NCBI GenBank assembly: GCA_050247235.1
Contig: JBFWUN010000003.1
Span: 13,171 to 77,170 of the forward strand
From: Gammaproteobacteria bacterium
GTDB lineage: Bacteria; Pseudomonadota; Gammaproteobacteria; Ga0077536
DNA: 64,000 bases
Direction: 5' to 3'
Made by a program: the position numbers and the translations under genes. Below, piece by piece: positions 35,720-51,403 of this stretch (position 1 is its first letter; each line of letters begins with the position of its first letter). Below the pieces are notes generated by a model that worked only from the letters and a program-made list of their open reading frames with translations, searched no databases and was not told where the DNA came from.

Positions 35720-35875
35720 GGGGCGGGATGACCGGGCAGGGCGGATGCGCGCATCGGACGGCGATGGTCGCATGGCCGAAGTGCCGCGCGAAAGCCGGAC
35801 GCGCAAGGCTCACGAGCCTGTTCACAATCTGAACACGCTCGGGCTAGAATGCGTTCATTCCATGAAAGGCTTGCC

Positions 35876-36520
35876 ATGACCCCGGACCGTGAAGAAGCGC
35901 TGACCTTGGAGGTGCTGTCTGCCATCGATGCGCGCAGCGACCTGACGCAACGCCACCTGGCCGATCGCCTGGGGGTGGCGCTCGGTCTCGCCAATTCCTA
36001 CCTGCGGCGCTGCGTGCGCAAGGGGCTCGTGAAAATCACGCAGGCCCCGGCCAACCGGTACCTCTACTACCTGACGCCGCAGGGTTTCGCCGAGAAGAGC
36101 CGGCTGACCGCGCAGTACCTGAGTGCGTCGTTCGATTTCTATCGGCGCGCCAGCGCCGCGATGCGCCAGTCCTTCCAGCACTGCGAAGCCGCGGGATTCC
36201 GGCGCATCGCGTTCGCGGGCATTTCCGAACTTGCGGAGGTCGCTCATGTCCGCAGCCACGATTTCGCGCTGGACGTGGTGGGCATCTGGGCGCCGGGGGC
36301 TGCGCGGCCTGCGTACCTGGGAAAGCCGGTCTGGCAGACGCTGCCGGCCGACGCGGTGGATGCCGTGGTGCTGACCGCACTCGAAGACTCCGCCGCGCTG
36401 TACGCGGCGCTGGTTCTGGACCTCGCGCCGGACCGTATCGTCGTGCCCGAACTGCTCATCGCGCTGATCGCGCCGGCGGGCGCGTCCACCGAGCTGCCGT
36501 CCGCGGCAACCGCGTCCTGA
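35876..36520 (+). CDS. Winged-helix transcriptional regulator (MarR-like N-terminus) immediately upstream of the polysaccharide genes
   Basis: N-terminal wHTH (LTQRHLADRLGVALGLANSYLRRCVRKGLV). Start uncertain, ATG 35849 vs 35876. Confidence 0.5.
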   Translation: MTPDREEALTLEVLSAIDARSDLTQRHLADRLGVALGLANSYLRRCVRKGLVKITQAPANRYLYYLTPQGFAEKSRLTAQYLSASFDFYRRASAAMRQSFQHCEAAGFRRIAFAGISELAEVAHVRSHDFALDVVGIWAPGAARPAYLGKPVWQTLPADAVDAVVLTALEDSAALYAALVLDLAPDRIVVPELLIALIAPAGASTELPSAATAS

Positions 36521-36545: not shown

Positions 36546-37610
36546 GTGCCCTACCGCTCACCGTACCAGATAGACAATCGCCGGATCCGCTTTGCGGTCG
36601 TCGGCTGCGGACGCATTTCGGATCGGCACTTCGATGCACTGAAATCGCATGCCGAGCGCGCCGAGCTCGTCGCCGTGTGCGACACGGACAAAGCGGCGCT
36701 CGCCAGGACGGCGGCCGATCTCGGGGTCGAAGGCTACGACAGCCTGGACTCGCTGCTGAGCCGGTCCGAGGCCGACGTCGTGGTGCTGTGCACGCCGAGC
36801 GGCCTGCACCCGTCGCAGACCATCCAGGTGGCGCGCGCCGGGCGCCACATCGTGACGGAGAAACCGATGGCCACCCGGCTCGCCGACGGCAAGCGGATGG
36901 TGGCGACCTGCGACGACGAGCACGTGCACCTGTTCGTGGTCAAGCAGAACCGGCTCAACCCCACCTTGCAGCTCGTCAAGCGGGCGGTCCGCAAGAAGCG
37001 GTTCGGGCGCATCTACATGGTGAACGTGAACGTGTTCTGGACGCGCCCGCAGTCCTACTACGATTCCTCGCGCTGGCGTGGCACCTGGGAGTTCGACGGC
37101 GGCGCGTTCATGAACCAGGCGAGCCACTACGTCGACCTCCTCGACTGGCTGATCGGCCCCATCGAGAGCGTGCACGCGTACACCTCCACGCTCGAGCGCA
37201 ACATCGAGGTGGAGGACTCGGGGGTCGCGAACATCAAGTGGCGCTCGGGGGCGCTCGGTTCGATCAACGTCACGATGCTGACCTATCCGAAGAACCTGGA
37301 AGGCTCGATCACCATTCTCGGCGAGAAGGGGACGGTGCAGGTGGGCGGCGTGGCGGTGAACGAGATCAAGCACTGGGAGTTCGCGGAGCCCGACGAGGAC
37401 GACGCCAAGGTCGAGGACGCGAGCTACGGCACCGTGTCGGTCTACGGCATCGGGCACCCGGTCTACTACGACAACGTGATCCGGGTGCTGCGGGGCGAGG
37501 CGAGTCCCGAGACGGACGGTCGCGAGGGGCTGCGCTCGCTGGAGACGCTGATCGCGATGTACACGTCCTCGCGCGACGGCCGGCGCGTGTCGCTGCCGCT
37601 GGAGTACTGA
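36546..37610 (+). CDS. wbpB: Gfo/Idh/MocA-family oxidoreductase, WbpB/WlbA-like (UDP-GlcNAcA 3-dehydrogenase)
   Basis: N-terminal Rossmann ([12 protein letters not shown]). Gene order B-D-E and neighbours support the call. Confidence 0.85.
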
Positions 37611-37614
37611 CGCG

Positions 37615-38196
37615 ATGGCGAACTACACCGTGCACCCCAGCGCGATCGTCGACGACGGCGCGCAGATCGGCGAAGGCACGCGCATCTGGCACTGGGTGCA
37701 CGTCAGCGGCGGCGCCCGCATCGGCGCGCGCTGCTCGCTCGGCCAGAACGTCTACGTGGGCAACCGCGTGACGATCGGCGACAACGTCAAGATCCAGAAC
37801 AACGTGTCGGTCTACGACAACGTCACGCTGGAGGACGACGTGTTCTGCGGCCCGAGCATGGTGTTCACGAACGTCTACAACCCGCGTTCGGCGGTCTCAC
37901 GCAAGGACGAGTACCGGGACACGCGGGTGAAGCGCGGTGCGACGCTCGGCGCGAACTGCACCATCGTGTGCGGCGCCACGATCGGCGAGTACGCGTTCGT
38001 CGGGGCCGGCGCGGTGGTCAACCGCGACGTGCCGGCCTTCGCGCTGATGGTCGGCGTCCCCGCGCGGCAGGCCGGCTGGATGAGCCGCTTCGGCGAACGG
38101 CTCGCGCTGCCGCTCACGGGCGACGGCGAAGCGACCTGCCCTCACACCGGCGACCGCTACGTGCTGCGCAACGGCGTGTGCACGCTCGCGCCCTGA
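37615..38196 (+). CDS. wbpD: Left-handed beta-helix N-acetyltransferase, WbpD/WlbB-like
   Basis: 193 aa with hexapeptide repeats throughout. Confidence 0.8.
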
Positions 38197-38220
38197 ATCC
38201 AACCCCGAGACCGAACCCCG

Positions 38221-39321
38221 ATGGAATTCATCGACCTGAAGACGCAGTACCGCCAGCTCAAGCCGGAAATCGACCGCCGGATCCAGGCGGTGCTGGATCA
38301 CGGCGCCTACATCATGGGCCCCGAAGTCGCCGAGTGCGAAGCGGCGCTCGCGGCCTACACCGGGTCCCGGCACTGCATCACCGTCGCGAGCGGCACCGAT
38401 GCGCTGCTGATCGCGATGATGGCGCTCGGGGTCAAGGCCGGCGACGAGATCATCACCACGCCGTTCACGTTCATCGCGACCGGCGAGATGATCGCGCTGA
38501 TCGGCGCGCAGCCGGTGTTCGTCGACATCGAGCCGCGCACCTGCAATCTCGACCCCGCGCAGGTCGAAGCCGCGATCACGCCGCGCACGAAAGCCATCAT
38601 GCCGGTCAGCCTGTACGGGCAGTGTGCCGACTACGACGCGATCAATGCCATCGCGTCGAAACACGGCCTCCCGGTGATCGAGGACGCCGCGCAGAGCTTC
38701 GGCGCGACCTACAAGGGCCGCAGGTCGTGCGCGCTGACCACGATCGGCTGCACGAGCTTCTTCCCGTCCAAGCCGCTCGGCTGCTACGGCGACGGCGGGG
38801 CGTGCTTCACCGACGACGATGCGCTCGCGAAGCTGATGCGCGAAATCCGCGTGCACGGGCAGGATCGGCGCTATCACCACCCGGTGATCGGCGTGAACGG
38901 CCGGATGGACACCCTGCAATGCGCGGTGCTGCTCGCGAAGATGCCGACGTTCCCGCAGGAGGTGGCCGCGCGCGAGCGGATCGGCGCGCGCTATTCGGCG
39001 CTCGTCCGCGAGCATGCGCCGGGTGCGACCCCGCCGACCATCGAATCCCACAACACGTCGGTGTACGCGCAGTACACCGTCGAGGTGGGTGACCGCGAGG
39101 GCGTGCAGGAACGGCTGAAGGCGGCGGGGATCCCCACCGCCGTGCATTACCCGACGCCGCTGCACCTGCAGCCCGCGTTCGCGCACCTCGGGCTCGGGCG
39201 CGGGGCGTTTCCCGTCGCCGAGGCAGCCGGTGCGCGCGTGATGAGCCTGCCGATGCATCCGTTTCTTGACGAGGCGACGCAGCTGCGTGTCGTCGACAGC
39301 CTGCGTGTCGCGCTCGCTTGA
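38221..39321 (+). CDS. wbpE: DegT/DnrJ/EryC1-family PLP aminotransferase, WbpE/WlbC-like
   Basis: 366 aa. Canonical DegT family with a PLP-lysine region. Confidence 0.85.
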   Translation: MEFIDLKTQYRQLKPEIDRRIQAVLDHGAYIMGPEVAECEAALAAYTGSRHCITVASGTDALLIAMMALGVKAGDEIITTPFTFIATGEMIALIGAQPVFVDIEPRTCNLDPAQVEAAITPRTKAIMPVSLYGQCADYDAINAIASKHGLPVIEDAAQSFGATYKGRRSCALTTIGCTSFFPSKPLGCYGDGGACFTDDDALAKLMREIRVHGQDRRYHHPVIGVNGRMDTLQCAVLLAKMPTFPQEVAARERIGARYSALVREHAPGATPPTIESHNTSVYAQYTVEVGDREGVQERLKAAGIPTAVHYPTPLHLQPAFAHLGLGRGAFPVAEAAGARVMSLPMHPFLDEATQLRVVDSLRVALA

Positions 39322-39475: not shown

Positions 39476-39994
39476 ATGAAGCATCAAGCCGCGTGGACGT
39501 TGGTCCAATCCAAACCACGTCAGGAACGGGTTGCACTCGAAAACCTGCTTCGCCAGGGTTACGAGGCCTATCTGCCGCTCATTCGCACCGCGGATCGAAG
39601 TATCCCGCGCCGCACGGGCGTTTCGCCCGCGTTTCCTCGCTACCTGTTTGTGAACCTTCGGCCCGAGGTCGACGCGTTCGCGCCGATTCGATCCACGTCC
39701 GGAGTATCGTCGCTCGTGCGATTCGGCAACCAGTACGCTACCGTCGCGGACGATCTGATCCGGAATCTGAAGGCGCGCTCCGATCCTGACGGCGTCTATG
39801 ATTTGGCGCTGAAACCGCTGAAACCGCTGAAACCCGGAGACCGCGTGCGCGTGATGTCGGGGCCGCTTGCGGAGTACGAGTGCATTGTTGCGGCCCCTAG
39901 TGGTCGCGAGCGAGTGGAACTGTTGCTCCAATTCGTAGCCCGCGAAGTTAAGGTTAGCGTGCCGCTAGCGGCTGTCCGCTATATCGGTATCTGA
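39476..39994 (+). CDS. rfaH: RfaH-type NusG-paralog transcription antiterminator
   Basis: 172 aa. Aligns block by block with E. coli RfaH: WTLVQSKPRQERVALENLLRQGYEAYLPLI ~ WYLLYCKRGQLQRAQEHLERQAVNCLAPMI, PAFPRYLFVNLRPEV ~ PLFPNYLFVEFDPEV, and the KOW region PGDRVRVMSGPLAEY. Confidence 0.85.
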   Translation: MKHQAAWTLVQSKPRQERVALENLLRQGYEAYLPLIRTADRSIPRRTGVSPAFPRYLFVNLRPEVDAFAPIRSTSGVSSLVRFGNQYATVADDLIRNLKARSDPDGVYDLALKPLKPLKPGDRVRVMSGPLAEYECIVAAPSGRERVELLLQFVAREVKVSVPLAAVRYIGI

Positions 39995-40078
39995 CCGTAG
40001 ACTGCGGTTCGCGCACGTTCGCGTGCAGCAGCCGCATCTAACATAACCGCTAGCGCTGGTCTTCGACGAGACCGGTAC

Positions 40079-40090
40079 GGCGGTAGCGTG
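40079..40090 (+). promoter_or_regulatory. ops element (operon polarity suppressor), exact GGCGGTAGCGTG, in the 5' leader of the polysaccharide island operon
   Basis: Exact 12-mer match to the canonical ops sequence. Lies 85 nt downstream of rfaH and ~50 nt upstream of the first island gene. Confidence 0.7.
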
Positions 40091-40139
40091 CCCTATCGGC
40101 CGCGGCGTGGCGTCAAATTCTCAAACCGCGAAGACCTAA

Positions 40140-41057
40140 ATGGGAAGGATAGTAGTGAGCGGAGGCAGCATCCCTCGGTGCAAAGATTGTGGCGGTCAGT
40201 CGTTCATTTCCGTTACGACCTATAAGCGACTGTGGAAGATTTGTCGGGGTTGCGGCGCCGGCTTCCCGGAACAGCGGGCCAAGTACCCGTTCCGTTGGCT
40301 TTCTTTTCCGGACGTGAAGAAGCAGGACTATCTAGACGAAGCAAAAATGTATGACTACTTCACAACCGATATCCACATCAAACTTGCCATCGACGAAGCG
40401 CAGGAGTTCCATCAACGATTCATGATCGCCAAAAGGTTGGATCTAACCGGTAGAAGCTTGCTCGATATCTCCGGCGGAAATGGTCATTTCGCAAAATGGT
40501 ACGCCGACACCTTCTCCATGCCGACATCTTTTACAGAAATAAACCAGCCCGCGCTCGACTACGCACGAACGCATCATCAATTTGATGCTGTCGCCCATTA
40601 TGATCTCAATAAAGATGACCTCCGCGAAACAATGGGCCGGACTTTCGATGTTGTCATGGCAAGGGCTTGCATAATGTTTTGCGATGATCTCGTCGGTTTC
40701 GCGAACCAACTTCGTAGGGCGATCAATCCGGGTGGCTTGGTGATCGTGGATCGTTCAACCGAACCAACACTTGGCACTCTCGTCCGCGTTCAGTTAGATG
40801 AATTCAGCTATCACGTTCTCAGGCAGCCCGACGCAGTCGAGAGGGTATTTGAAGTCGCGGGCTTTCAGCTGGAAGCGCGACATGACGAAACCGATCCCAG
40901 CCTATACGTCTACGATCACGATCTACTACCCCACTGGTCTTTCTTGCACTACCTATATGAAATCATCGGCTTGCGACAGCTGCGAGGCGAACGGATTTTC
41001 CATCTTCCCGCCCGTGACCGAAGGCGAACGACATTTTTTTTCCGTGCCCCGGCGTAG
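40140..41057 (+). CDS. SAM-dependent methyltransferase with N-terminal zinc ribbon
   Basis: CKDCGG...CRGCG zinc ribbon. LLDISGGNGHFA motif I. Confidence 0.75.
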   Translation: MGRIVVSGGSIPRCKDCGGQSFISVTTYKRLWKICRGCGAGFPEQRAKYPFRWLSFPDVKKQDYLDEAKMYDYFTTDIHIKLAIDEAQEFHQRFMIAKRLDLTGRSLLDISGGNGHFAKWYADTFSMPTSFTEINQPALDYARTHHQFDAVAHYDLNKDDLRETMGRTFDVVMARACIMFCDDLVGFANQLRRAINPGGLVIVDRSTEPTLGTLVRVQLDEFSYHVLRQPDAVERVFEVAGFQLEARHDETDPSLYVYDHDLLPHWSFLHYLYEIIGLRQLRGERIFHLPARDRRRTTFFFRAPA

Positions 41058-41101
41058 CTCTCTATCGAAGTCGCCGCGTTGCGGCGAGAACAAAATACCG
41101 A

Positions 41102-41938
41102 ATGAGACCTGTGGAATGGAGAGATAAAGTGCCCGCAAATGAACTGATGCTGGATCCGGAATCTATCAACTACGACGTGTATCCTCGCGATTTTCGGGCT
41201 GTCGCGGACGGAAAGCTCGTCATCTTCGGAATTCCTAAGTGCGGCAATACGTGGGTGCAGTCGCTACTTTGCAAATACTTCGGCGTTGAACCAGTTCTGA
41301 CGATCGAAGAATTTACTAGCAGTGGAGTCCTTTCAATACACGATCCATACGAACCATACATGCGCGAACGACCGGACTTTGTCAGTGGCTTCTGTCTGAT
41401 TCGAGATATTCGAGACATGATTGTCTCCTACTTTCATTACTCGAATACGGACCAGTGGAGACACTCCATGACTCGTCATTACTACGATGACTTCGATTCT
41501 TTCTACTATGAATGGTTTATTTCTCGTTGTGTTCCGTCCCATCGCCTTCATACGTTTGCAAGCGAATTCGCTGAACGAGGAGTTCCAATCGTGCGCTACG
41601 AGCGACTAAACGCGAATCCCCGGTTCGAGTTCGCCCGGCTACTAAAGCGGCTCGGACATGAGGTCGACCACGAAAGGCTGCGTCTAGTAATAGAGGAACA
41701 CCGCTTGGAGAATCTTAAAAGAAATGGCGTTTACATCCGCTACCGCGTGGAGCAAACGCATTTCAGAAAGGGTGGGTGGGGTAACTTCCTGGACGAAATG
41801 CCTCCGCACATCTTGGCCGATGCGAACGAGCGGTTTGGTTCGTATTTGAAGCGGTGGGGATATCCTATCGAACTATCTGAAGAGAGCATAAACACATATC
41901 GCCAACAACTCGAAGACTTGGCTCGGTTGCAAGCGTAA
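41102..41938 (+). CDS. Sulfotransferase-family protein (PAPS-dependent)
   Basis: 5'-PSB-like PKCGNTW and 3'-PB-like IRDIRD motifs. 278 aa. Confidence 0.75.
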   Translation: MRPVEWRDKVPANELMLDPESINYDVYPRDFRAVADGKLVIFGIPKCGNTWVQSLLCKYFGVEPVLTIEEFTSSGVLSIHDPYEPYMRERPDFVSGFCLIRDIRDMIVSYFHYSNTDQWRHSMTRHYYDDFDSFYYEWFISRCVPSHRLHTFASEFAERGVPIVRYERLNANPRFEFARLLKRLGHEVDHERLRLVIEEHRLENLKRNGVYIRYRVEQTHFRKGGWGNFLDEMPPHILADANERFGSYLKRWGYPIELSEESINTYRQQLEDLARLQA

Positions 41939-42203
41939 TCATCCCGCGCAGTTGTTTCGTGGCCGATTCAATCGCATCTGTCTTCCGTGCGTCGGCGACG
42001 CTGCGGGCCACGACTTTCCCGGACTGCGTGGATTTACCAGCAAATGGCTCGCGGCGAAGCTCCGAAATTCGAGTTTAATATGTTAAACGCGGAAAGGCGG
42101 CAGCGCCGTTACGGCTGTGCGCTATAAGGCCCATCCTGGATTGCACGAGCGGTCTTCGCGTCGCGAAACCAATTAGACGTATTCCAACCTATCGTCGGCA
42201 CTA

Positions 42204-43073
42204 TTGCGGCGCAGGCCGTTTACGAAAGCACACCACGTTTACATGAGTAGTACAGAACCAGCAGCCAACCGAACCGATGCGCCCCAACCAGGTTTCGGTC
42301 GTATTTTGTGGGTTCAGCATAGGCTGTTTTGGCGTCTTGTCTGGCAAGATATACGCACGACTTATGCGGGCACGATGCTCGGGATCGGCTGGGTCATCTT
42401 CGGACCGCTGTTGCTGCTGCTGCTATACGCCATCATCTACGCGGTGATTTTTCGCGTACGAATCCCGAATTTCACGATCGAGGAATACATCGTCAACGTA
42501 TTTTCCGGTTTGGTGCCATTTCTCGCCTTCGCCCAGGGTCTAGGGGCCTCTACGAACGCCATTCAACGGGGCAAAGGACTGCTGTCAAATCCCGCATTCC
42601 CAGTGGACCTGGTTCCCCTGAAACCCGTGGCTGGTGCGTATGTAATTCTGCCGGTCGGTTTCGCGTTTACTTTTATCGGCGATCTGATCTTCTCCAAAGT
42701 CACATGGACCTGGTCGTTCGTTCCTTTGGTTATGCTATTTCAGATGATGCTGTCTATGGGCATCGGCTACATTCTGTCGGTTATCAGTTTGGTTGTACGT
42801 GACTTACAGTTCTTGGTTCAGTACATCGTTATCGCGTTGCTTGTAGTAACTCCTATTGCATATACACCAAACATGATTCCTCAGGGGTTAATGTCTTTAC
42901 TCTATTTGAATCCTCTTTTCTACTCGGTGTACAGCTACCAGAATCTCGTACTACTGAACACGCTGCCTCCACCGCATATCATTTGTATAGGATCAATTAC
43001 TTCGTTAACCATATTTTGGGCGGGCCGTTGCTTCTATCGCCGCACGCGGGGGGCTATTGGAGACTTTCTGTGA
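42204..43073 (+). CDS. wzm: ABC-2 type polysaccharide exporter permease (Wzm/KpsM-like)
   Basis: Six predicted TM helices, ABC-2 family. TTG start; alternative ATG at 42243. Confidence 0.85.
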   Translation: MRRRPFTKAHHVYMSSTEPAANRTDAPQPGFGRILWVQHRLFWRLVWQDIRTTYAGTMLGIGWVIFGPLLLLLLYAIIYAVIFRVRIPNFTIEEYIVNVFSGLVPFLAFAQGLGASTNAIQRGKGLLSNPAFPVDLVPLKPVAGAYVILPVGFAFTFIGDLIFSKVTWTWSFVPLVMLFQMMLSMGIGYILSVISLVVRDLQFLVQYIVIALLVVTPIAYTPNMIPQGLMSLLYLNPLFYSVYSYQNLVLLNTLPPPHIICIGSITSLTIFWAGRCFYRRTRGAIGDFL

Positions 43074-44434
43074 CCTCGGATGCAGAGGAAACGGATGGCG
43101 ACTCGGCGTATGCGGTCCGTTGCAGGGATGTTTCTAAGAGCTATCCCCTCATCGATGATGCCTTCTCCGGGCTAAGTTATTTGGTTCGATATGCTCTCGG
43201 CGAGACGAATAGCGCCGAGCGGGTCAATCATGTGAAGGCGCTACGATCAATTGACCTCGACATCAAACGTGGGGAAAGAGTGGGTCTGATTGGCCGCAAC
43301 GGTTCCGGCAAAACGACCTTTCTTAAACTGTTGAGCGGACAGTTGCCGCCTACGTCCGGCGAGTTGAGAGTCAACGGCGGCATGTATTACTTAGGAGCCG
43401 GTACGATCGGACTCGACCCCGAACTGACGGGTCGACAGGGAATTTCCGCGTTTCTCGTCGAGCGTGGAACCCCCTCAAACGCGCTACCGGAAATTCTGGA
43501 GGAATTGGAATCATTTCTCGAACTGCACGAGTACTTTGACCAGCCTATAAAGCACTATTCTCTCGGGATGCGCGCACGTACGGAATTTGCCGCAGCTACG
43601 GCGATCACCGCTGACATCATACTTGTCGACGAGATTCTTGGTGCGGGCGACATGTTCTGGGCGGAGAAGTGCTCTCGCAGAATGGAGCGGCTATGTGCGC
43701 AGGGCCGCACGATGCTCATCGTCTCTCATTCGCTGGGGCAAATACTGCGCTTCTGCGATCGCGCAGTTTGGATAGACGTTGGAAGGATTGTAATGGACGG
43801 ACCTGTGCAAACGGTGGTTCGCCGCTACGAAGCCTTTCTCGAAAATCTGAGCTGGAAAACGGCAGATTTGGACGATAAGGCGTTCGATGCCGCGAGTCTT
43901 GCGCACGAGCTTACCGACGTGCAACTTCCACGAAGTAATGTTTCCGTGATGCGGTGGCCGGCGCGAGGTGATGTCCTCATCGAGGGAATCTGGATAAACG
44001 ATTCGTCCAATACGTCCGTGACGAGCGCCGCTGGTATGCCAGTGCGCATTCGAATCGCGCTGGAATGCATCCGGGGTGGACAATATGCGTTGCGATATCT
44101 CATCACATTTTGGACCCTTAATGGGAAACGTGTAGGAATTGTTGAGAACGAAGTTGATAGGGTGGTTTTGAAGTCGACAGAGAAACACGAAGTCGAGGTT
44201 ACGATAGGCGGGGGGAATATCGGCCCTGGTATTTACGCTGTAACGGTTTCGCTTTTCCAGGTAAGCGAAGCGGGGAGCAGTGCGAACGAGTACGACGCCC
44301 GCCAAGATATGATTTACAAATCATACACGCTTCTCATCGAACATCAGGCCAGCACCAATGACTGGCGTCCGCCTGCCATTCACACTGTCTCAATTGCGAC
44401 AAAGAGTGACGCCGAGGCAGATGCGACCGTCTGA
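43070..44434 (+). CDS. wzt: ABC transporter ATP-binding protein Wzt-like, with a C-terminal extension (putative glycan-terminus-binding domain)
   Basis: GTG start overlapping the wzm stop (GTGA). Walker A GRNGSGKT, signature YSLGMRAR, Walker B IILVDE. ~200-aa C-terminal beta-rich extension. Confidence 0.85.
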   Translation: MTSDAEETDGDSAYAVRCRDVSKSYPLIDDAFSGLSYLVRYALGETNSAERVNHVKALRSIDLDIKRGERVGLIGRNGSGKTTFLKLLSGQLPPTSGELRVNGGMYYLGAGTIGLDPELTGRQGISAFLVERGTPSNALPEILEELESFLELHEYFDQPIKHYSLGMRARTEFAAATAITADIILVDEILGAGDMFWAEKCSRRMERLCAQGRTMLIVSHSLGQILRFCDRAVWIDVGRIVMDGPVQTVVRRYEAFLENLSWKTADLDDKAFDAASLAHELTDVQLPRSNVSVMRWPARGDVLIEGIWINDSSNTSVTSAAGMPVRIRIALECIRGGQYALRYLITFWTLNGKRVGIVENEVDRVVLKSTEKHEVEVTIGGGNIGPGIYAVTVSLFQVSEAGSSANEYDARQDMIYKSYTLLIEHQASTNDWRPPAIHTVSIATKSDAEADATV

Positions 44435-44595
44435 TGTGAGACTAGGATTTATAGGTCGAATCCAATTTTTGGAAGACCAAAGCGGCCCGCAACATGTCTG
44501 GCGATATCGCTACGTGTGAGACTCTCCGAATTATCGATCGGTGATGAAGTCGAGTGCGTTTCGCCGTCGCGGCGAATCGGGCAGGTAAGTGAAGC

Positions 44596-45972
44596 ATGAA
44601 GCATGCATCAGAGTCTTTTGTTATCGCATCAACACATCGAACGGTTATCGAACTTGAGTGCGTATCGAAAAGCTTCCAACTATTCGAGTCAAGTTCGACG
44701 CGTGCCTTTTCAGCACTAGCGTTCTGGCGGCAGCGGGCAAACCGAGGCATCGTCGGCGTGCGTACTGCCCTTAAGGACGTCACGTTAAAGGTTGAGTGTA
44801 GAGAGCGCGTTGGGCTGGTTGGACATAACGGGTCGGGGAAGACGACGCTACTCAATTTGATTCTGGGGTTGAGTGTTCCTACAGCCGGAATGGTCCGGGT
44901 ACGAGGCAGAGCACACGGGCTTATGTCGGTAGGATCAGGATATGACGATGGCATGACCGGAAGGAAGGTTATTCATTCTCTACTCATGCTCAACAATCTC
45001 TCGCGAAGCGAAGAGCGAGAAGCGACGAGGGACATCGAGGAATTCGTCGAGCTTGGTGAATTTCTGGATCACCCGGTGAGGACATACTCCCTAGGAATGC
45101 GGGCGCGCCTTGAGTTTGCCGTAGCGACAGCAATCGCTCCGGACGTGCTGGCGGTTGACGAGGTGCTAGGAGCAGGAGATGGATATTTTGCCCAGAAATC
45201 GGCGCGCCGCATGCGCGCGGTTGCCGGGAGATCAACATTGCTGTTGGTGTCGCATTCGATGCGACAGATCCTCGACTACTGCGAACGCGCGATCTGGCTT
45301 AACGAAGGAGTGGTGGAAGCTGACGGACCGGCTGAAGAGGTCGTTAAGGCATACGAGGAATTCATGATGCGCAAGGAAGCGGCTCAGCTGGATAGGCAGA
45401 ATTCGATCATTGAGAGGAAGGCGGACGACGTTGAAGGAACTTTGTCTCACATGGATTCCACGGTTGTCCGCTTGGCATCGCAAAGATTGGTCCCGGCACC
45501 CCGGGCTAAGGAAAAAGCCATCGGTCAGCTCATCGACGCCTGGTTTCTTCCTTCGAAGAGCAGGATTCACGTCACCGAAACGGGTGCACTGCTGACTGTC
45601 GCCGTTCGTGTTTGGATTCCAACGGTGAGTCGCGATCAGCTTGGCATAGTGCTCCTAGCGTTTGGCCCTTCGGGGCAGCTCCTCTGGGACGCCCGTGTCG
45701 AACCGCAAGTGTTCGGCTCGGGCGAGCGAACGCTGCTGCTGGAGATCGCAAAGGCGACGCCCGGGGTGGGCGATTACTTGATTACGATAGTCTTGGAAAA
45801 GCAACAGGACGAACAGTCGTTCGCGCCCGTGGACTGCCTGCATGGGGCGCTCAAACTGCGAATGATCACGACCAACTATTCTGACCCACCCGTATTCCAT
45901 TGCGCTGGAGAGTGGCGGTACGGAAGCGCCGGCGAGCGACGCGAGTCGAGTCGAGTTAGTGCGTGGGTCTGA
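44596..45972 (+). CDS. Second Wzt/TagH-like ABC ATP-binding protein with a distinct C-terminal extension
   Basis: Walker A GHNGSGKT, signature YSLGMRAR, Walker B VLAVDE. 458 aa. Confidence 0.8.
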   Translation: MKHASESFVIASTHRTVIELECVSKSFQLFESSSTRAFSALAFWRQRANRGIVGVRTALKDVTLKVECRERVGLVGHNGSGKTTLLNLILGLSVPTAGMVRVRGRAHGLMSVGSGYDDGMTGRKVIHSLLMLNNLSRSEEREATRDIEEFVELGEFLDHPVRTYSLGMRARLEFAVATAIAPDVLAVDEVLGAGDGYFAQKSARRMRAVAGRSTLLLVSHSMRQILDYCERAIWLNEGVVEADGPAEEVVKAYEEFMMRKEAAQLDRQNSIIERKADDVEGTLSHMDSTVVRLASQRLVPAPRAKEKAIGQLIDAWFLPSKSRIHVTETGALLTVAVRVWIPTVSRDQLGIVLLAFGPSGQLLWDARVEPQVFGSGERTLLLEIAKATPGVGDYLITIVLEKQQDEQSFAPVDCLHGALKLRMITTNYSDPPVFHCAGEWRYGSAGERRESSRVSAWV

Positions 45973-46007
45973 TGCGTCTCTGCGGAATCGATTGGTAGCT
46001 ATCCACC

Positions 46008-47900
46008 GTGTGCGGTTTTGTCGCGGTGTTTTCTCCAAACCGTCCGATCGAAGGGGGGGACCTAGCTTTCATGCGAGATCGCCTCTCGCATCGTGGGCCG
46101 GATGGCGCTAAGTCGTGGCAACGGCAGTATTCGCGACTTGCGGTGGGCCTTGGTCATCGACGCCTCAAGGTAGTGGACCTGCGAGATGTCGCCGACCAAC
46201 CGATGGTCAGCGCCGACGGGACGAAAGTGATCTGCTTTAATGGGGAAATCTACAATTACGTAGAACTTCGGCGCGAGCTCATGGCGAGTGGACGCAGCTT
46301 CCGTACGAGAAGCGATACCGAGGTGTTGCTCCAAGCGTACGAGGAGTGGGGCGAGAGAGCGTTGCCGCGTCTGAACGGAATGTTTGCGTTCGTTATTTGG
46401 GACGAAGCGCGGAACGAAGCAATCGTGGTCAGAGATCGCTTTGGCGAAAAGCCATTGTTTTTTGCAACTGCGAAAGACGGCGCGTTGCTTTTTGCTTCTG
46501 AGATGAAAGGGTTGTTTGCCCATCCGGCACTAAGCCCGGCTATCGACGAGTCCGTCGCCGACGAAGTTCTCGGGGGAATGCTGACTTACGGGCGCCCAGA
46601 GACATTGTTTCGCGGGGTCAGGCAGTTTCCTGCGGCCCACTTCATGCGAATAACGGGCGCGGGCGAAGCCCAGAAACCTCGCCCCTACTGGTCACCGGCA
46701 TGCGACCCCGAAAATCCCGTCGTCGTCACAAAGGAGACGCGTGAGCGTTTCTTCAGTCTCCTGCAAGGCGCGGTCCGTAACCGCCTGCGTTGCGATGTAC
46801 GCGGCACCGCCGCGCTGTCCGGGGGGCTCGATTCTTCGTCACTCGTTGCGTTGATCGCCGGCATGGAGAGTCCTGGTTTCCGCCTCGAGCAGACCATTTC
46901 GGTGCAGTTCCCGGATTCTCCCGAGGTCGACGAGAGCAACCACCAGCGAGCGGTGTCGGCATTTACGGGCATCGCCGCCGCCGCAGTTACGCCGTCGCCG
47001 AGCGACCTTATCTCCGTCTTACGGCGACTTCACTGGCACCATGAAGGGGTTGTCGGCGGGCCTTCGATGTTTGCCGAATGGTGCGTCATGCGCTGGGCGA
47101 ATCAGAACGGCTACAAGGTCATCATCGATGGTCAGGGTGCTGACGAGATCCTCGCCGGATACAAAGTCTACTGGGACGCGTATCAATTCGACACGCACAC
47201 TCGAGGCGAACAGCTCCGCCGCTTGTGGAATATCTACCATATGCGTCGGCGACTCCGCGCGCAGGCGCACAGGAATCCGGGCGCCTCCCGGCGGTTGAAT
47301 GCGCCCGTGCATCTCGATCGAGAGGCGCTGTCCGGATACTGGGAAACATGGGCGAAACCGATGGCGGCAAGTTATTCATGGCCGGGAGCGCCCCAGCTTC
47401 GCAAAGGCCATGTCTTGCGTTACGCCCTCGGTGCCCATCTCATGTCCATCTCCTTGCCTTCGAACTTGTATGCCGGTGACAGGAACGCCATGGCACACGG
47501 CGTAGAGGCGCGCTACCCGTACCTGGATTACGACCTGGTCGATTTCTGCATGAGCCTCGCTGATGATGCCTTCATCCGGCACGGATGGCAGAAGTGGTTG
47601 CTCCGCGATGCGATGAGGAATCGCCTACCGCACGCCGTGGTCTGGCGGCCGGACAAGGTCGGATACGAGGTGCCGCAGCACAGATGGATAACGGCGGAGC
47701 TGAAGGAATGGATTTTGGAGCGGGCGTTCGACGAGCGGATCCGACATTTCCGCTATTTCAACGTGGAGCGGATGAATGCCTATTGGCAGGCACATTGCGC
47801 CGGCGAGGCGGACTATTCCGGCGATCTCTGGCGGGCGGCCAGTCTGTCCGAATGCATCGACATGATCGATGCGGGCGTCTGGCGACACGGGTTGCAGTAG
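46008..47900 (+). CDS. Asparagine synthase (glutamine-hydrolysing) family amidotransferase (AsnB/WbpS-like)
   Basis: N-terminal MCGF (Ntn Cys2) followed by a PP-loop SGGLDSS. 630 aa. Confidence 0.9.
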   Translation: MCGFVAVFSPNRPIEGGDLAFMRDRLSHRGPDGAKSWQRQYSRLAVGLGHRRLKVVDLRDVADQPMVSADGTKVICFNGEIYNYVELRRELMASGRSFRTRSDTEVLLQAYEEWGERALPRLNGMFAFVIWDEARNEAIVVRDRFGEKPLFFATAKDGALLFASEMKGLFAHPALSPAIDESVADEVLGGMLTYGRPETLFRGVRQFPAAHFMRITGAGEAQKPRPYWSPACDPENPVVVTKETRERFFSLLQGAVRNRLRCDVRGTAALSGGLDSSSLVALIAGMESPGFRLEQTISVQFPDSPEVDESNHQRAVSAFTGIAAAAVTPSPSDLISVLRRLHWHHEGVVGGPSMFAEWCVMRWANQNGYKVIIDGQGADEILAGYKVYWDAYQFDTHTRGEQLRRLWNIYHMRRRLRAQAHRNPGASRRLNAPVHLDREALSGYWETWAKPMAASYSWPGAPQLRKGHVLRYALGAHLMSISLPSNLYAGDRNAMAHGVEARYPYLDYDLVDFCMSLADDAFIRHGWQKWLLRDAMRNRLPHAVVWRPDKVGYEVPQHRWITAELKEWILERAFDERIRHFRYFNVERMNAYWQAHCAGEADYSGDLWRAASLSECIDMIDAGVWRHGLQ

Positions 47901-48010
47901 CGCTGTTTAGAATCTCGATACCGGACCGTCCGCGGCGTGCAACCGGAAGATTCGCGCACGGCAAGCCGGGCGAGAGGGTTTGTTTCGACGCGCGCTAACG
48001 CGCGGAGACG

Positions 48011-49432
48011 ATGACTATGTCCAAGCCACGCGTCTACGACCTTATCCGGCGCATATTGCCGCGGCCTATGCGCCGCTTGGCAGCTATGGCGCTTGGTGGC
48101 GTGCGACGCTGCATCAGTTTGGCCTGGAGGGGGGTTGGATTCTTCGTCGCACAGGGCCAAGGCGTCACCTCCTCCGCCGAGTTGGTCACCGCGCCGACGT
48201 TGGGCAAGCGAACTGCCTGGGTGATCTCCTTCACCGGGGTTTCGAATGAACCGCGGGTGCTGCGCCAGACCCAGGCGCTGCTGTCAGAAGGTTGGCGCGT
48301 GGTGGTGGTCGGCTACGATGGCCATTCGCCGCGTCCGACGGAATGGAATTTCGTACGGTTGCGGGATCGCGCGAGGCACGCGTCGCGCTTCTCCTTCGCG
48401 CTACTGCGCGCGCAGCGCGCGCTGGGGCGAATCCTGTTCATGAATGCGCATCGATCTCCTGCGTTACGTTCGTTCGGCGCCCGCCTCTATTACGACGCGA
48501 TTCCGAACTGGCGAGAGAATCTCAGGCAGACAATGCGCATCGCGCGCCAGAATCCGCAACTTGCGGCGAATCTCGTTCTCGCACACGACTGGCACACAAG
48601 TCCCGTTGGATGGCGCCTTTCCCGGTATTTCCGCTGCCCCTTGTCGATTGATTGCCACGAGTATGCCCGGGGCCAGTACCTGCACGATCCAAAGTGGGTC
48701 CAGGAGCAGCAGCCGTTCGTCGTGGGAATGCTCGATTACTACCTGTCCCGTGCCGATCTGGTGACCACGGTCTGCGAGGGCATTGCCGGTTTGCTCGACC
48801 GCGAGCAGCGCCTGAAGCAGCCGGCGGTGGTGGTTCGCAGCGTGCCGCGCTACGAAAAACAGGTCTTCAGACCCTGCGGCAACCAGATAGTCGTTCTCTA
48901 CCACGGCGATGTTTCGTATGTTCGCGGCCTTCATAAGGCGGTAAGATCCATGCCCCTCTGGCGACCCGAGTTCCGACTGCACATCAGGGGTGCGGGAGAC
49001 CCCGACTACATCGCGAGCCTGCAGCGGATTGCGGCAGAGTCGGGAGTCGCAGATCGCCTGAGTTTCGAAGGACCCGTGCCGTTCAACGAGATAGTCGGGG
49101 CGGCGAATCGTGCGGACATCGGCTACTTCGTCCACAAGGATGTGTCGCCGCAGAAGCGTTTCGTGCTGCCGAACAAGTTCTTCGAGTACATCATGGCCGG
49201 GCTGGCTCTCTGCGTCAGCGATCTACCGGAAATGGCCCGCATCGTGCGCCGATACGACCTCGGCCTGCTCGTCGACGAGTACGACGAGCCTTCGATTGCC
49301 CGTGTCATCAACGGCTTCAGCCGCGACTCTATTGACCGCTACAAACGGGCGGCTCTTGAAGCGGCCGCGGTTCTGAACTGGGAAGCGGAACAACGAGCGA
49401 TGTTAGACGCGTACGCCCAGATAACAGGATAG
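48011..49432 (+). CDS. Glycosyltransferase family 4 (GT-B, RfaB-like)
   Basis: C-terminal GT1 domain with the EX7E-like region (FVLPNKFFEYIMAGLAL). Confidence 0.8.
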   Translation: MTMSKPRVYDLIRRILPRPMRRLAAMALGGVRRCISLAWRGVGFFVAQGQGVTSSAELVTAPTLGKRTAWVISFTGVSNEPRVLRQTQALLSEGWRVVVVGYDGHSPRPTEWNFVRLRDRARHASRFSFALLRAQRALGRILFMNAHRSPALRSFGARLYYDAIPNWRENLRQTMRIARQNPQLAANLVLAHDWHTSPVGWRLSRYFRCPLSIDCHEYARGQYLHDPKWVQEQQPFVVGMLDYYLSRADLVTTVCEGIAGLLDREQRLKQPAVVVRSVPRYEKQVFRPCGNQIVVLYHGDVSYVRGLHKAVRSMPLWRPEFRLHIRGAGDPDYIASLQRIAAESGVADRLSFEGPVPFNEIVGAANRADIGYFVHKDVSPQKRFVLPNKFFEYIMAGLALCVSDLPEMARIVRRYDLGLLVDEYDEPSIARVINGFSRDSIDRYKRAALEAAAVLNWEAEQRAMLDAYAQITG

Positions 49433-49441
49433 GCTTGCGCT

Positions 49442-50617
49442 GTGCGTCGCGCTTTAGTGCTCTGCCTCTCCAATCCGAATCGCGATCCGCGACCCCGAAG
49501 AGCGCTCGAGTGGCTGTCGTCCGAATTCGAACTTACGACCGCAGCGTTCGCACCCACTGAATTCGTTCACAGCCGCTTCGTCGACGTCTCCGCCCACGCG
49601 AAGCCGGCGCTCGGGGGTGTTGTGGGCTTCCTGAGCCACGCCGCGTCCCTGAAGTTGAATTCGTTACTGGACCGCAACGAAGCATCGGAATGGACCAAGG
49701 GGCTGCGCGCCGCTCGAACGGAACTATCCGGCGCCGCCTTCGATCTTGTCTTGTGTTTCGACGCCGAGCTTCTCCCGTTGGCAAACGCTGTCCGGGGCCG
49801 CGCCAAACTCATATTCGATGCCCGCGAATACTACCCGGCACAGTTCGAGGACAGGTTGATCTGGCGCTCCTGTATGCGAGACTTCGCGTGGCACCTGTGT
49901 CGCTCCTACCTATCGCGCTGTGACGCGATCTTCACCGTCAGTGAAGGTCTCCGGGAGGGATACCGCACCACCTTCGGTGTCGATTCGGAGGTGCTGTACA
50001 GCTTGCCGAGCTATCGGGAGCTCGCGCCCACCCCCGTGGACCCCTCATCGATACGGCTCGTCTATCATGGAAACGCGAACCCCAGTCGCGCCACTCACTT
50101 GATGGTCTCCTTTGCGCGGGCGCTGGAGCGGCGTTTTCTCATGGATTTCGTGGTACTCCCGCCAGACTCGCGCTACGTCGCGCGTCTGCGCCACGATGCC
50201 TCAGGCTGCGAACGAATTCGTTTTCTGGAGCCTTTGGCGTTCGAAGACATCGTCCCTTTCCTGAATCGGTACGATCTCGGCGTGTTCTACGTTCCGCCGA
50301 CCAATTTCAACCTGAAGCACTGCATGCCAAACAAGCTGTTCGAGTTCATCCAGGCGCGGCTGGGCGTAATCGTCGGGCCGTCGCCCGACATGAAGCGCTT
50401 CGTGGAGGCGACGGGCGTAGGTCTGGCCGGGAGCGAGTGGAACGTCAACTCGCTCGTCCGCGACGTGAACGCACTTGGCGTGCAGGACATCGAGCGCTAC
50501 AAGCAACGCAGCCACGCCGTGGCTGCGGATTACTCATCCCTAACTTCCGCGCGACAGTTCCGCGCGGCGGTCGAGCGGGTGATGTCCGCACCTGGTGTCA
50601 GCTCGAGCGGCGGATGA
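49442..50617 (+). CDS. Glycosyltransferase family 4-like
   Basis: C-terminal GT1-like domain (MPNKLFEFIQARLGV). Confidence 0.75.
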   Translation: MRRALVLCLSNPNRDPRPRRALEWLSSEFELTTAAFAPTEFVHSRFVDVSAHAKPALGGVVGFLSHAASLKLNSLLDRNEASEWTKGLRAARTELSGAAFDLVLCFDAELLPLANAVRGRAKLIFDAREYYPAQFEDRLIWRSCMRDFAWHLCRSYLSRCDAIFTVSEGLREGYRTTFGVDSEVLYSLPSYRELAPTPVDPSSIRLVYHGNANPSRATHLMVSFARALERRFLMDFVVLPPDSRYVARLRHDASGCERIRFLEPLAFEDIVPFLNRYDLGVFYVPPTNFNLKHCMPNKLFEFIQARLGVIVGPSPDMKRFVEATGVGLAGSEWNVNSLVRDVNALGVQDIERYKQRSHAVAADYSSLTSARQFRAAVERVMSAPGVSSSGG

Positions 50618-51378
50618 GGGCCCGATACTTCCTTGCCACGGTGGCGCTTTCCTTCGTGGTCTGCGGCGTCACGTTGACCAATCTGGAAAGCCGCGGGGTA
50701 ATCTGGAACTTGACGCGGACCCGATTGGGCTACGTCGAGGGATTCGCGCCAGCCAGCGCATTGAGTGCCCTGCCGGCGGTTGCGGATCTGAAGATCGCCG
50801 CGGTCGGCGGGCCCGAGTTCGTGGCCGCCGCCGAACGGGCACTTGGATCGGACACCCGGCTGCGGACATGCGTCATTCCAAACCCCGACGCAAGCGACGT
50901 TGCAGACTGCGTGGATGCTATCGGAAGTCGTTGGCCGCGACTCGCAATCGCGGCGGAGCTTCATCCGTTCTTTTTCTCCGACATCGTGGAGTCGGGCGAA
51001 CGGCCGCGCTTCGATGTGCTGGATCACGACCCTGCATGGCAGTGGTGGTCCATGCCACGCATCAGGCGTGCGTTCGAACTTGCAGGTGCCTGGGCAGGTG
51101 CCGGCTCGACTGGGCCGTCGACGGGTGCGGCGCGGCAGTTCGATCCGATGATGTCCTTCGTCCCGGAAACAGCCGCTCTGTCACGCGTGCGGGAACGCGC
51201 CGTATCCAGCGGTCTCGATATCTATTGGGTGGAGGCACCCGACAGTGGCAGATACGCGAGCGCGCCACGCTTCTGGTCAGCTTACGCGGAAGCTCGGGTC
51301 AGGCTTGCTGAAAGGCTGCGGCCGGGACAGTTGGTGGAGTTGAACCAGTTAGCCGGCAGGTTCCGTACGCCGAAATAA
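50614..51378 (+). CDS. Hypothetical membrane-anchored protein
   Basis: The internal ATG overlaps the upstream stop (ATGA). N-terminal TM (YFLATVALSFVVCGVTL). The ORF track N-terminal extension is rejected. Confidence 0.4.
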   Translation: MRARYFLATVALSFVVCGVTLTNLESRGVIWNLTRTRLGYVEGFAPASALSALPAVADLKIAAVGGPEFVAAAERALGSDTRLRTCVIPNPDASDVADCVDAIGSRWPRLAIAAELHPFFFSDIVESGERPRFDVLDHDPAWQWWSMPRIRRAFELAGAWAGAGSTGPSTGAARQFDPMMSFVPETAALSRVRERAVSSGLDIYWVEAPDSGRYASAPRFWSAYAEARVRLAERLRPGQLVELNQLAGRFRTPK

Positions 51379-51403
51379 ATGACTCGATCAGGCGACGGAA
51401 GTC

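What the first reader, a model, noticed from the sequence alone, without database searches (positions are those of the whole stretch)
39476..40139. RfaH paralog followed by an exact ops element at the entry of the low-GC polysaccharide island
The 172-aa protein aligns block by block with E. coli RfaH (NGN and KOW regions). 85 nt downstream lies GGCGGTAGCGTG, identical to the canonical ops 12-mer that recruits RfaH to paused RNA polymerase, in the leader of a ~20-kb co-oriented operon. A cis-encoded dedicated antiterminator plus its recruitment site travelling with the island would explain expression of long, foreign, lower-GC DNA.
Basis: partly seen in the sequence, partly recalled or inferred. 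Interest (0 to 1): 0.55.

Follow-up and report, generated by a model that had tools for sequence, protein, structure and literature searches.

The report
RfaH-like antiterminator gene with its ops site
A gene for an RfaH-type transcription elongation factor sits 85 bases upstream of an exact copy of the DNA signal that loads RfaH onto RNA polymerase, at the head of a 23-kb surface-polysaccharide gene block; the pairing is real and recurs in many environmental bacteria, but it is a new member of a known kind of system.

Summary
ORF 39476-39994 (+, 172 aa) is a specialised NusG paralog closest to RfaH: TIGR01955 scores 133.7 bits, just under its 144.5 cut-off, against 26 bits for housekeeping NusG. 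It is 37% identical to E. coli RfaH. GGCGGTAGCGTG lies at 40079-40090 (+) and is the only exact copy in the window (0 of 100 shuffles).

The pairing is not chance. In 80 metagenome loci encoding relatives, 30 carry the exact 12-mer on the coding strand downstream of the gene, 4 just upstream and none on the other strand. It lies either 75-185 nt after rfaH, as here, or about 750-900 nt after it, mostly beyond an intervening HTH regulator gene.

Downstream run 19 co-oriented polysaccharide genes (40140-63172) of lower GC.

"Travelling with the island" is only partly supported. The gene's GC3 (0.68) matches the island rather than its upstream neighbours (0.85-0.96). However, the module precedes different gene sets elsewhere. 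The first island cassette also occurs, IS-flanked and without rfaH or ops, in an alphaproteobacterium.

The protein lacks several E. coli ops-contact residues (R16, H20, R73) and two autoinhibition residues (E48S, F130V). AlphaFold gave a beta-barrel CTD for it and for a control, so fold switching is untested. There is no full JUMPstart.

The parts
35820..35850 (+). Candidate locus promoter and operator. The palindrome GTTCACAATCTGAAC (35820-35834) overlaps TTCACA-18-TAGAAT (35821-35850).
   Evidence: This is the only GTTCA-N5-TGAAC in the window, against 0.02 expected. The same palindrome occurs in 10 of the 16 loci held at that point, counting duplicate loci (7 distinct): once in each except L008/L009, which have three copies. 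In the loci I inspected it lies ahead of the HTH_24 gene or of the gene heading the rfaH unit. This is the best sigma-70-like match on the + strand in 35-64 kb, 10 of 12. Function is inferred.
35876..36520 (+). HTH_24 winged-helix regulator, the usual neighbour of rfaH in this clade.
   Evidence: Pfam HTH_24 at 1.4e-8. It is 58% identical to the regulator next to rfaH in L008. tblastn finds it beside rfaH in many loci.
36546..39321 (+). Three conserved sugar-precursor genes: a Gfo/Idh/MocA oxidoreductase, a hexapeptide acetyltransferase and a DegT aminotransferase (WbpB/D/E-like). High GC3 of 0.91-0.96.
   Evidence: Pfam. The oxidoreductase is 80% identical to its counterpart in L008. GC3.
39476..39994 (+). 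RfaH-like specialised NusG paralog, 172 aa.
39995..40139 (+). Leader between rfaH and the first island gene. No promoter-like or terminator-like site was found.
   Evidence: The RNA fold is not unusual, z = -1.74. The public gene call for the next gene is 300 aa, which implies a GTG start at 40155 preceded by GGAAGGA.
40051..40090 (+). Weak JUMPstart-like stretch. Only the ops half and an AGCGC box match.
   Evidence: Rfam RF01707 scores 16.6 bits, gathering score 35, E = 1.5.
40079..40090 (+). ops element GGCGGTAGCGTG, the pause and recruitment site.
   Evidence: Exact and unique in the window. The 12-mer is invariant in 37 of 38 distinct homologous sites, within the flanking consensus ctGcAg|ops|CC.
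40140..63172 (+). Presumed target: 19 co-oriented ORFs with GC 0.49-0.64. They encode a methyltransferase, two sulfotransferases, Wzm, two Wzt-like ATPases, an AsnB-like protein, glycosyltransferases, an MBOAT, a class II aaRS-core-like protein, a HisH/HisF-like pair and others.
   Evidence: Pfam, composition. Terminator-like sites are no more frequent than in shuffles. Operon status is inferred from orientation and spacing.

Best explanation
This is a genuine RfaH-family elongation factor gene paired in cis with its canonical ops site. Together they form a conserved rfaH(-HTH regulator)-ops module placed just ahead of the variable part of a surface-polysaccharide locus. That locus is of the ABC-transporter-dependent type and probably makes a methylated and sulfated glycan.

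Proposed mechanism, inferred from E. coli RfaH:
1. RNA polymerase starts upstream. The only recognisable promoter is at 35821-35850, ahead of the HTH regulator, so rfaH itself is probably on the same transcript.
2. The polymerase pauses at T11 of ops, and the non-template strand forms the small ops hairpin.
3. The NGN domain of the factor binds the hairpin and the beta' clamp helices, excluding NusG and therefore Rho.
4. The modified polymerase transcribes the about 23 kb of lower-GC genes without premature termination.

Shown here: the family assignment, the exact ops, and the strand-specific conservation of the gene-site pairing across many loci. Inferred: pausing, recruitment, anti-termination, operon structure, and which promoter feeds ops.
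For: - Family: RfaH models score far above NusG, UpxY and LoaP. E. coli RfaH chains are the best PDB sequence hits. The best Foldseek match is 'fully recruited RfaH' 8phk_P at 1.3e-11.
- Key residues are retained: K10, R23, Q24, F56, I93 and R138.
- ops is exact, with 0 of 100 shuffles containing one.
- Pairing in the first loci fetched: the ops consensus GGCGGTAGnnTG (exact in five, one with C at a variable position) lies on the coding strand downstream of the homologue in 6 of 9 distinct close loci.
- Pairing in 80 further metagenome loci: 30 have ops downstream on the + strand, 4 just upstream on the + strand and 0 on the - strand. About 0.14 would be expected in the 145 kb of downstream sequence.
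- Among loci with at least 1 kb of downstream DNA, 20 of 45 have ops within 1 kb.
- In the loci whose downstream genes were looked at (L001, L007, L008), and in the window, the genes that follow ops, directly or after the HTH gene, are polysaccharide genes.
- Literature: RfaH clusters CL2-CL8 neighbour envelope-biogenesis genes, and CL4 neighbours an HTH regulator (PMC7593976).
Against: - The RfaH equivalog models are not reached: 133.7 vs 144.5 bits, and 93.7 vs 124.
- Two of the three residues needed for autoinhibition are replaced: E48S and F130V.
- AlphaFold2 predicts a beta-barrel CTD, not the alpha-hairpin of free RfaH.
- No promoter was found in the leader, so ops would lie about 4.2 kb into a transcript, unlike the 5'-leader position usual in E. 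coli.
- The first downstream gene appears to have a Shine-Dalgarno sequence, unlike typical E. coli RfaH targets.
- There are no expression data.
Confidence: 0.8

Rival explanations
1. Island cargo. The rfaH gene, ops and the whole 23-kb lower-GC block were acquired together as one mobile unit that brings its own antiterminator.
For: rfaH GC3 is 0.676 and the island genes are 0.54-0.75, against 0.85-0.96 for the four genes immediately upstream. In the other loci the rfaH homologue matches its own locus composition. The closest relative (P0002, 66% identical) lies on a contig of GC 0.57. Gene order differs from relatives: here rfaH follows the WbpB/D/E-like genes instead of preceding the HTH gene.
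Against: The block is compositionally mosaic: 40.1-46 kb has GC 0.49-0.56 and 46-63 kb has 0.56-0.64. Its first cassette occurs at 68% nucleotide identity in Roseicyclus marinus between IS elements with no rfaH or ops. The rfaH-ops module precedes different genes in L001, L007 and L008. No integrase, tRNA or direct repeats were looked for or seen at the edges.
Confidence: 0.25
2. Decoupled factor. The cis-encoded protein is not the ops reader. With E48S and F130V it binds polymerase without needing ops, as NusG does or as E. coli RfaH F130V does. On this view ops serves only as a pause, or is read by another RfaH encoded elsewhere.
For: F130V alone makes E. coli RfaH partly ops-independent (PMC5587751). 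[quoted passage not shown] R16, H20 and R73 are replaced. AlphaFold2 gives a beta-barrel CTD.
Against: The tight, strand-specific linkage of ops to this gene family (34 of 80 loci, none on the opposite strand) argues that the two work together. Every ops-linked homologue keeps R23 and Q24, and 37 of 39 keep K10. The AlphaFold result does not discriminate, because the control P0004, which keeps E48, I93 and F130, also gave a beta barrel.
Confidence: 0.1
3. Chance or misassignment. The ORF is a generic or housekeeping NusG and the 12-mer is a coincidence.
For: At one mismatch allowed, a 12-mer match is not rare in this GC-rich window: 0.79 expected.
Against: No exact match appears in 100 shuffles. 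NusG scores 26 bits against RfaH at 134. The gene is not in a secE-nusG-rplK context. The pairing recurs in dozens of independent loci.
Confidence: 0.01

Closest known systems
E. coli / Salmonella RfaH with ops (JUMPstart) leaders of the rfa, rfb, kps, hly and tra operons
   Same: The fold family and domain order are the same (NGN plus KOW), with 37% identity. The ops 12-mer is identical. The target is a long polysaccharide operon of lower GC. K10, R23, Q24, F56, I93 and R138 are retained.
   Different: E. coli rfaH is monocistronic, unlinked to its targets and acts in trans on several operons. Here the gene lies 85 nt upstream of ops, inside the locus. R16, H20, R73, E48, F130 and the HTT motif are not conserved. 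There is no full JUMPstart (16.6 vs 35 bits). The alpha-hairpin CTD is not shown.
RfaH clusters CL2-CL8 of Wang et al. 2020 (PMC7593976), especially CL4, which neighbours an HTH regulator
   Same: These are RfaH-like genes embedded among cell-envelope and polysaccharide genes, with an adjacent HTH transcriptional regulator. R73 is described there as a late-arising residue.
   Different: Membership of a particular cluster was not tested here. In the sections I read, the paper says recruitment modes of operon-encoded paralogs are unknown. It does not report a canonical ops next to these genes.
PrfaH of IncX plasmids (PMC11880322; PDB 9ik0) and ActX of conjugative plasmids
   Same: These are cis-encoded RfaH-like factors in the long operon they activate. 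For PrfaH an ops-like site is reported close to the gene.
   Different: They are plasmid conjugation operons rather than a chromosomal polysaccharide locus. 9ik0 is only a weak structural match, E = 3.6e-4 over the NGN domain.
Bacteroides UpxY, Myxococcus TaA and Bacillus LoaP
   Same: These are specialised NusG paralogs encoded at the head of the polysaccharide or polyketide operon they control.
   Different: They are different subfamilies: UpxY model 64 bits and LoaP 30 bits, against RfaH 134. To my knowledge they do not use the ops 12-mer.

Membership tests
RfaH (NusG specialised paralog; TIGR01955 / NF006534) | NGN domain followed by a KOW-type C-terminal domain | tested here: met
   Pfam NusG NGN scores 59.8 bits. 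KOW scores 14.5 bits, below its 22.3 cut-off. The AlphaFold2 model has pLDDT 87 and shows an NGN domain plus a five-strand barrel. Foldseek places RfaH and NusG structures at the top.
RfaH (NusG specialised paralog; TIGR01955 / NF006534) | Score at or above the curated equivalog cut-off | tested here: not met
   TIGR01955 scores 133.7 vs 144.5, and NF006534 scores 93.7 vs 124. The public record calls the protein only 'NusG family protein'.
RfaH (NusG specialised paralog; TIGR01955 / NF006534) | Closer to RfaH than to housekeeping NusG or other paralog families, and not in the secE-nusG-rplK context | tested here: met
   Scores are RfaH 133.7, UpxY 64.1, LoaP 29.9 and NusG 26.1 bits. In PDB, RfaH reaches about 1e-18 and NusG 2.6e-5. 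The neighbours are polysaccharide genes.
RfaH (NusG specialised paralog; TIGR01955 / NF006534) | ops-contacting side chains K10, R16, H20, R23, R73 (plus Q24) | tested here: not met
   K13, R26 and Q27 are conserved. R16 becomes V19, H20 becomes N23 and R73 becomes S75. Among 39 ops-linked homologues, K10 is K in 37, R23 and Q24 are kept in all 39, R16 is never R, H20 is N in 32 and R73 is R or K in 12. An Arg at E. coli position N70 is present in 38 of 39.
RfaH (NusG specialised paralog; TIGR01955 / NF006534) | F56, which gives tight binding to the beta' clamp helices | tested here: met
   F58 is invariant in 70 of 70 homologues.
RfaH (NusG specialised paralog; TIGR01955 / NF006534) | Loss of the NusG Rho-binding loop (I164-F165-G166) | tested here: inconclusive
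   The aligned positions are F153-V154-A155. E. coli RfaH has L145-I146-N147 there. This is not the NusG motif, but it rests on alignment alone.
RfaH (NusG specialised paralog; TIGR01955 / NF006534) | Autoinhibition residues E48, I93 and F130 | tested here: not met
   The window protein has S50, I95 and V138, so only I93 is kept. In the 70-protein set E48 is E or D in 51 and F130 is F or Y in 68. Val at the F130 position occurs in 8 of 90 loci. F130V relieves autoinhibition in E. coli RfaH.
RfaH (NusG specialised paralog; TIGR01955 / NF006534) | [quoted passage not shown] | tested here: inconclusive
   AlphaFold2 gives a beta barrel, and full-length matches are to activated RfaH. The control P0004, which keeps E48, I93 and F130, also gives a beta barrel with the same alignment, so the method does not discriminate.
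RfaH (NusG specialised paralog; TIGR01955 / NF006534) | A cognate ops element on the non-template strand in the leader of the target operon | tested here: met
   Exact GGCGGTAGCGTG at 40079-40090 (+). It is conserved beside homologues.
RfaH (NusG specialised paralog; TIGR01955 / NF006534) | ops-dependent recruitment to paused RNA polymerase, and anti-termination | not testable with these tools
   This needs in vitro transcription or genetics.
JUMPstart RNA/DNA element (Rfam RF01707) | The 38-39 nt element: an upstream CAGYGC box, a spacer and ops, scoring above the gathering score | tested here: not met
   The score is 16.6 bits against a gathering score of 35, E = 1.5. Only tAGCGCt and the ops half match, with a 21-nt spacer. 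There were no hits at gathering threshold in the whole window.
UpxY / LoaP operon-embedded NusG paralogs | Score above the family model cut-off | tested here: not met
   UpxY scores 64.1 vs 100, and LoaP scores 29.9 vs 125.

The most novel reading that the evidence does not exclude
This clade may be an evolutionary intermediate between cis-acting, operon-embedded NusG paralogs and the trans-acting, autoinhibited enterobacterial RfaH. On this reading it already depends on a perfectly canonical ops, which is invariant over proteins only 36-66% identical to the window protein. It would read ops with a different residue set: K10, R23 and Q24, plus Arg at position 70 and Asn at position 20, without R16, H20 or R73. 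In the window protein and its nearest relative, the natural E48S and F130V changes would mean autoinhibition has been relaxed or was never completed. Specificity would then come from being made next to the site rather than from fold-switch gating.
Probability: 0.2. Interest if true: 0.6.

Novelty: new member of a known kind. Interest (0 to 1): 0.4.

Why it matters
Most of what is known about RfaH recruitment comes from enterobacterial proteins that act in trans. Reviews state that recruitment of operon-encoded paralogs is unknown (PMC7593976, PMC7819879). This window and about 35 related loci show that a large environmental clade of locus-embedded RfaH-like genes is physically coupled to the exact E. 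coli ops sequence, even though several E. coli ops-contact and autoinhibition residues differ. That gives a ready-made natural series for two questions: which residues are really needed to read ops, and whether autoinhibition is dispensable when factor and site are encoded together. For this genome specifically, it predicts how a long, compositionally foreign polysaccharide operon escapes premature termination.

Tried and rejected
- Exact-sequence lookup of the window protein's contig found nothing on record.
- The single genome-contig scan, run with the protein alone, returned only two close relatives (Ectothiorhodospiraceae MAGs) and four distant Bacteroidota UpxY-like loci.
- Rfam at gathering threshold gave nothing in the window. 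The permissive search gave only a sub-threshold JUMPstart match.
- Promoter and terminator scans found nothing in the rfaH-ops leader.
- RNA folding of the leader (z = -1.74) and of the 154-nt gap upstream of rfaH (z = +0.87) was unremarkable.
- AlphaFold2 was used to test for the alpha-hairpin CTD. It gave a beta barrel both for the query and for a control that retains E48, I93 and F130, so I do not use it as evidence for or against autoinhibition.
- I first thought rfaH-ops was a resident, host-composition anchor. The GC3 analysis contradicted that for the gene itself.
- I then tested strict co-transfer with the island. The Roseicyclus cassette, which lacks rfaH and ops, contradicts it for the first island genes.
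- A literature search for a prior description of 'ops downstream of rfaH' found none among open-access papers. That is not proof of absence.

Full report
**1. What is in the sequence**

The window is high-GC DNA, about 0.66-0.75 over the first 39 kb. An identical protein is on record from a metagenome-assembled 'Gammaproteobacteria bacterium'.

ORF 39476-39994 (+) encodes 172 aa.
- Pfam finds a NusG NGN domain (3.9e-16) and a sub-threshold KOW motif.
- NCBIfam ranks RfaH TIGR01955 first: 133.7 bits, model positions 1-158 of 159, cut-off 144.5.
- A second RfaH model scores 93.7, UpxY 64, LoaP 30 and housekeeping NusG 26.
- Against PDB sequences, E. coli RfaH chains lead at about 1e-18 over residues 3-164; the best NusG reaches 2.6e-5.
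- Identity to E. coli RfaH is 36.7% over 158 aa.

GGCGGTAGCGTG lies at 40079-40090 (+), 84 nt after the stop codon. It is the only exact copy in the window, and none of 100 shuffles contains one. It equals the ops end of the Rfam JUMPstart consensus. The full JUMPstart model scores only 16.6 bits against a gathering score of 35.

**2. Surroundings**

Downstream, 19 co-oriented ORFs run from 40140 to 63172. The public call implies a GTG start at 40155 for the first. They encode:
- a SAM methyltransferase and two sulfotransferases;
- a Wzm-like ABC-2 permease and two Wzt-like ATPases;
- an AsnB-like amidotransferase, several GT4 glycosyltransferases and an MBOAT acyltransferase;
- a class II aaRS-core-like protein, a DMFA2_C-domain protein and a HisH/HisF-like pair.

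This is a surface-polysaccharide locus of the ABC-transporter type. Its GC is 0.49-0.56 over 40.1-46 kb and 0.56-0.64 over 46-63 kb. Terminator-like hairpins are no more frequent than in shuffles.

Upstream lie an HTH_24 regulator (35876-36520) and three WbpB/D/E-like precursor genes (36546-39321).

The only good sigma-70-like promoter on this strand in 35-64 kb is TTCACA-18-TAGAAT at 35821-35850. It overlaps a palindrome, GTTCACAATCTGAAC. No promoter-like site was found in the 145-nt rfaH-ops leader. As far as can be seen, ops lies about 4.2 kb into a transcript that also encodes the regulator and rfaH.

**3. Is the gene-site pairing more than chance?**

I fetched loci encoding homologues. 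Among the first nine distinct close loci, six match the ops consensus GGCGGTAGnnTG on the coding strand downstream of the gene. Five are exact; L002 has C at a variable position. They are the window, L001, L002, L007, L008 and L015. L015 encodes the nearest relative (66% identity), with ops 310 nt after the stop codon.

A profile-guided scan of metagenome contigs gave 80 more loci, 36-59% identical. The results are:
- 30 have exact GGCGGTAGCGTG downstream on the + strand;
- 4 have it 62-2342 nt upstream on the + strand;
- none has it on the - strand;
- about 0.14 would be expected in the 145 kb of downstream sequence.

Distances fall in two classes. One is 75-185 nt, as in the window. The other is about 750-900 nt, where the HTH_24 gene mostly lies between rfaH and ops. 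Of the loci with at least 1 kb of downstream DNA, 20 of 45 have ops within 1 kb.

Across 38 distinct sites the 12-mer is invariant except for one C/G change, inside the consensus ctGcAg|ops|CC.

The pairing is a conserved module.

**4. Resident anchor or island cargo?**

Close homologues above about 45% identity sit inside polysaccharide loci. Typically the order is UDP-sugar dehydrogenases, rfaH, HTH, then WbpB/D/E-like genes. A more distant one in Fluviibacter is stand-alone, as in E. coli. In the window the order differs: HTH, WbpB/D/E, rfaH, ops, then the island.

Composition:

| Genes | GC3 |
|---|---|
| rfaH in the window | 0.676 |
| Four genes immediately upstream | 0.85-0.96 |
| Island genes | 0.54-0.75 |

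In the other loci rfaH matches its own surroundings.

Two observations count against a single travelling unit:
- The block is mosaic in composition.
- Its first two genes are 68% identical at the nucleotide level to an IS-flanked pair in Roseicyclus marinus, an alphaproteobacterium. That locus has no rfaH homologue and no ops.

In addition, ops is followed by different genes in L001, L007 and L008.

My reading is that rfaH(-HTH)-ops is a portable junction module in front of an exchangeable gene set. This is analogous to JUMPstart/ops ahead of variable O-antigen clusters in enterobacteria (established knowledge). Strict co-transfer of the whole 23 kb is possible but less likely.

**5. How like E. 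coli RfaH is the protein?**

Positions were mapped through alignments A1 and A2.

| Role in E. coli RfaH | Retained | Replaced |
|---|---|---|
| ops contacts (10.1101/324400) | K10, R23, Q24 | R16V, H20N, R73S |
| Clamp-helix binding | F56 | HTT motif (H65-T67) is A-F-A |
| Autoinhibition (PMC7593976) | I93, R138 | E48S, F130V |

Among 39 ops-linked homologues:
- R23, Q24, F56 and R138 are invariant, and K10 is K in 37;
- an Arg at the position of E. coli N70 is present in 38;
- R16 is never Arg, H20 is Asn in 32, and R73 is Arg or Lys in only 12.

In this clade ops is therefore conserved without the full E. coli read-out set.

F130V on its own makes E. coli RfaH partly ops-independent (PMC5587751). 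Val at that position occurs in 8 of 90 loci. The S/V combination occurs only in the window and its nearest relative.

AlphaFold2 predicts a beta-barrel CTD (pLDDT 87), and the model matches activated RfaH best. A control protein that keeps E48, I93 and F130 gave the same fold with the same alignment. The fold-switch feature therefore remains untested.

**6. Comparison with what is known**

RfaH/ops is textbook. RfaH-like genes next to envelope genes, including a cluster associated with an HTH regulator, were catalogued by Wang et al. 2020. Operon-embedded NusG paralogs (UpxY, TaA, LoaP, ActX) are known. A plasmid PrfaH with an adjacent ops-like site was reported in 2025.

What I did not find described is that a broad environmental clade of locus-embedded RfaH-like genes is coupled in cis to the exact canonical ops.

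I file this as a new member of a known kind. It functions like RfaH. Strict equivalog membership is not met on score, on the ops-contact set or on the autoinhibition residues.

**7. Verdict**

The feature is real, correctly located and correctly interpreted in outline. 'Paralog' is untestable from this window. 'Travelling with the island' is only partly supported, and there is no full JUMPstart. Interest is moderate: it is ordinary in kind, but it offers a useful natural series for the evolution of ops recognition and autoinhibition.

Noticed in passing
window 35820-35834; L001 6539; L002 1390; L007 6519; L008 8568, 8600, 8989; L011 6543; L013 11136; L015 941: A conserved palindrome, GTTCA-N5-TGAAC, occurs in most related loci: once each, except L008/L009 with three copies. 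In the loci I inspected it lies in front of the HTH_24 regulator gene or of the gene that heads the rfaH-HTH unit. In the window it overlaps the best sigma-70-like promoter. It is probably the operator of the HTH_24 regulator.
   Followed up: partly
loci L021-L096, about 20-25 nt upstream of ops: Many ops sites are preceded by a second conserved box, (A/G)TGCGGA(G/A)C, then about 12-14 nt, then CTGCAG directly abutting ops. The window's leader lacks this box and has tAGCGCt instead. Its function is unknown, and it differs from the enterobacterial JUMPstart upstream half.
   Followed up: no
window 40140-41938; L097 10172-11736: The methyltransferase-sulfotransferase pair that opens the island is 68% identical at the nucleotide level (74% protein identity for the methyltransferase) to a pair in Roseicyclus marinus (Alphaproteobacteria). 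There it lies between IS3-family and IS21-family transposase genes and has GC 0.44-0.45. It looks like a cassette mobile across classes.
   Followed up: partly
window 23316-27377 (-), repeats 24682-25553: A 1353-aa ORF has two cyclic-nucleotide-binding domains and a rhodanese domain. It contains a long, imperfectly repeated Ala/Glu/Arg/Leu-rich stretch with DNA repeat periods of 45-225 nt. This produces a striking AT skew of -0.35 to -0.55 over 23-26 kb.
   Followed up: partly
window 52637-53947, 46008-47900, 58093-59491, 41102-41938, 55254-56132, 42983-45972: The island carries unusual tailoring genes: a class II aminoacyl-tRNA-synthetase-core-like ORF, an AsnB-like amidotransferase, a HisH/HisF-like pair, two sulfotransferases and two Wzt-like ATPases. 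Together these suggest an amidated or amino-acid-decorated, sulfated glycan.
   Followed up: no
window 36546-39321 and the rest of the window: WbpB/D/E-like genes are present, but no UDP-sugar 6-dehydrogenase (WbpA-like) gene was seen among the ORFs scanned. In related loci one or two such genes directly precede rfaH.
   Followed up: no
L019 25, L020 1760, L087 481, L063 10: In four relatives ops lies upstream of rfaH on the coding strand, at 62-410 nt in three and 2342 nt in L063. There the factor gene itself would be inside the ops-controlled unit, giving possible positive feedback.
   Followed up: no
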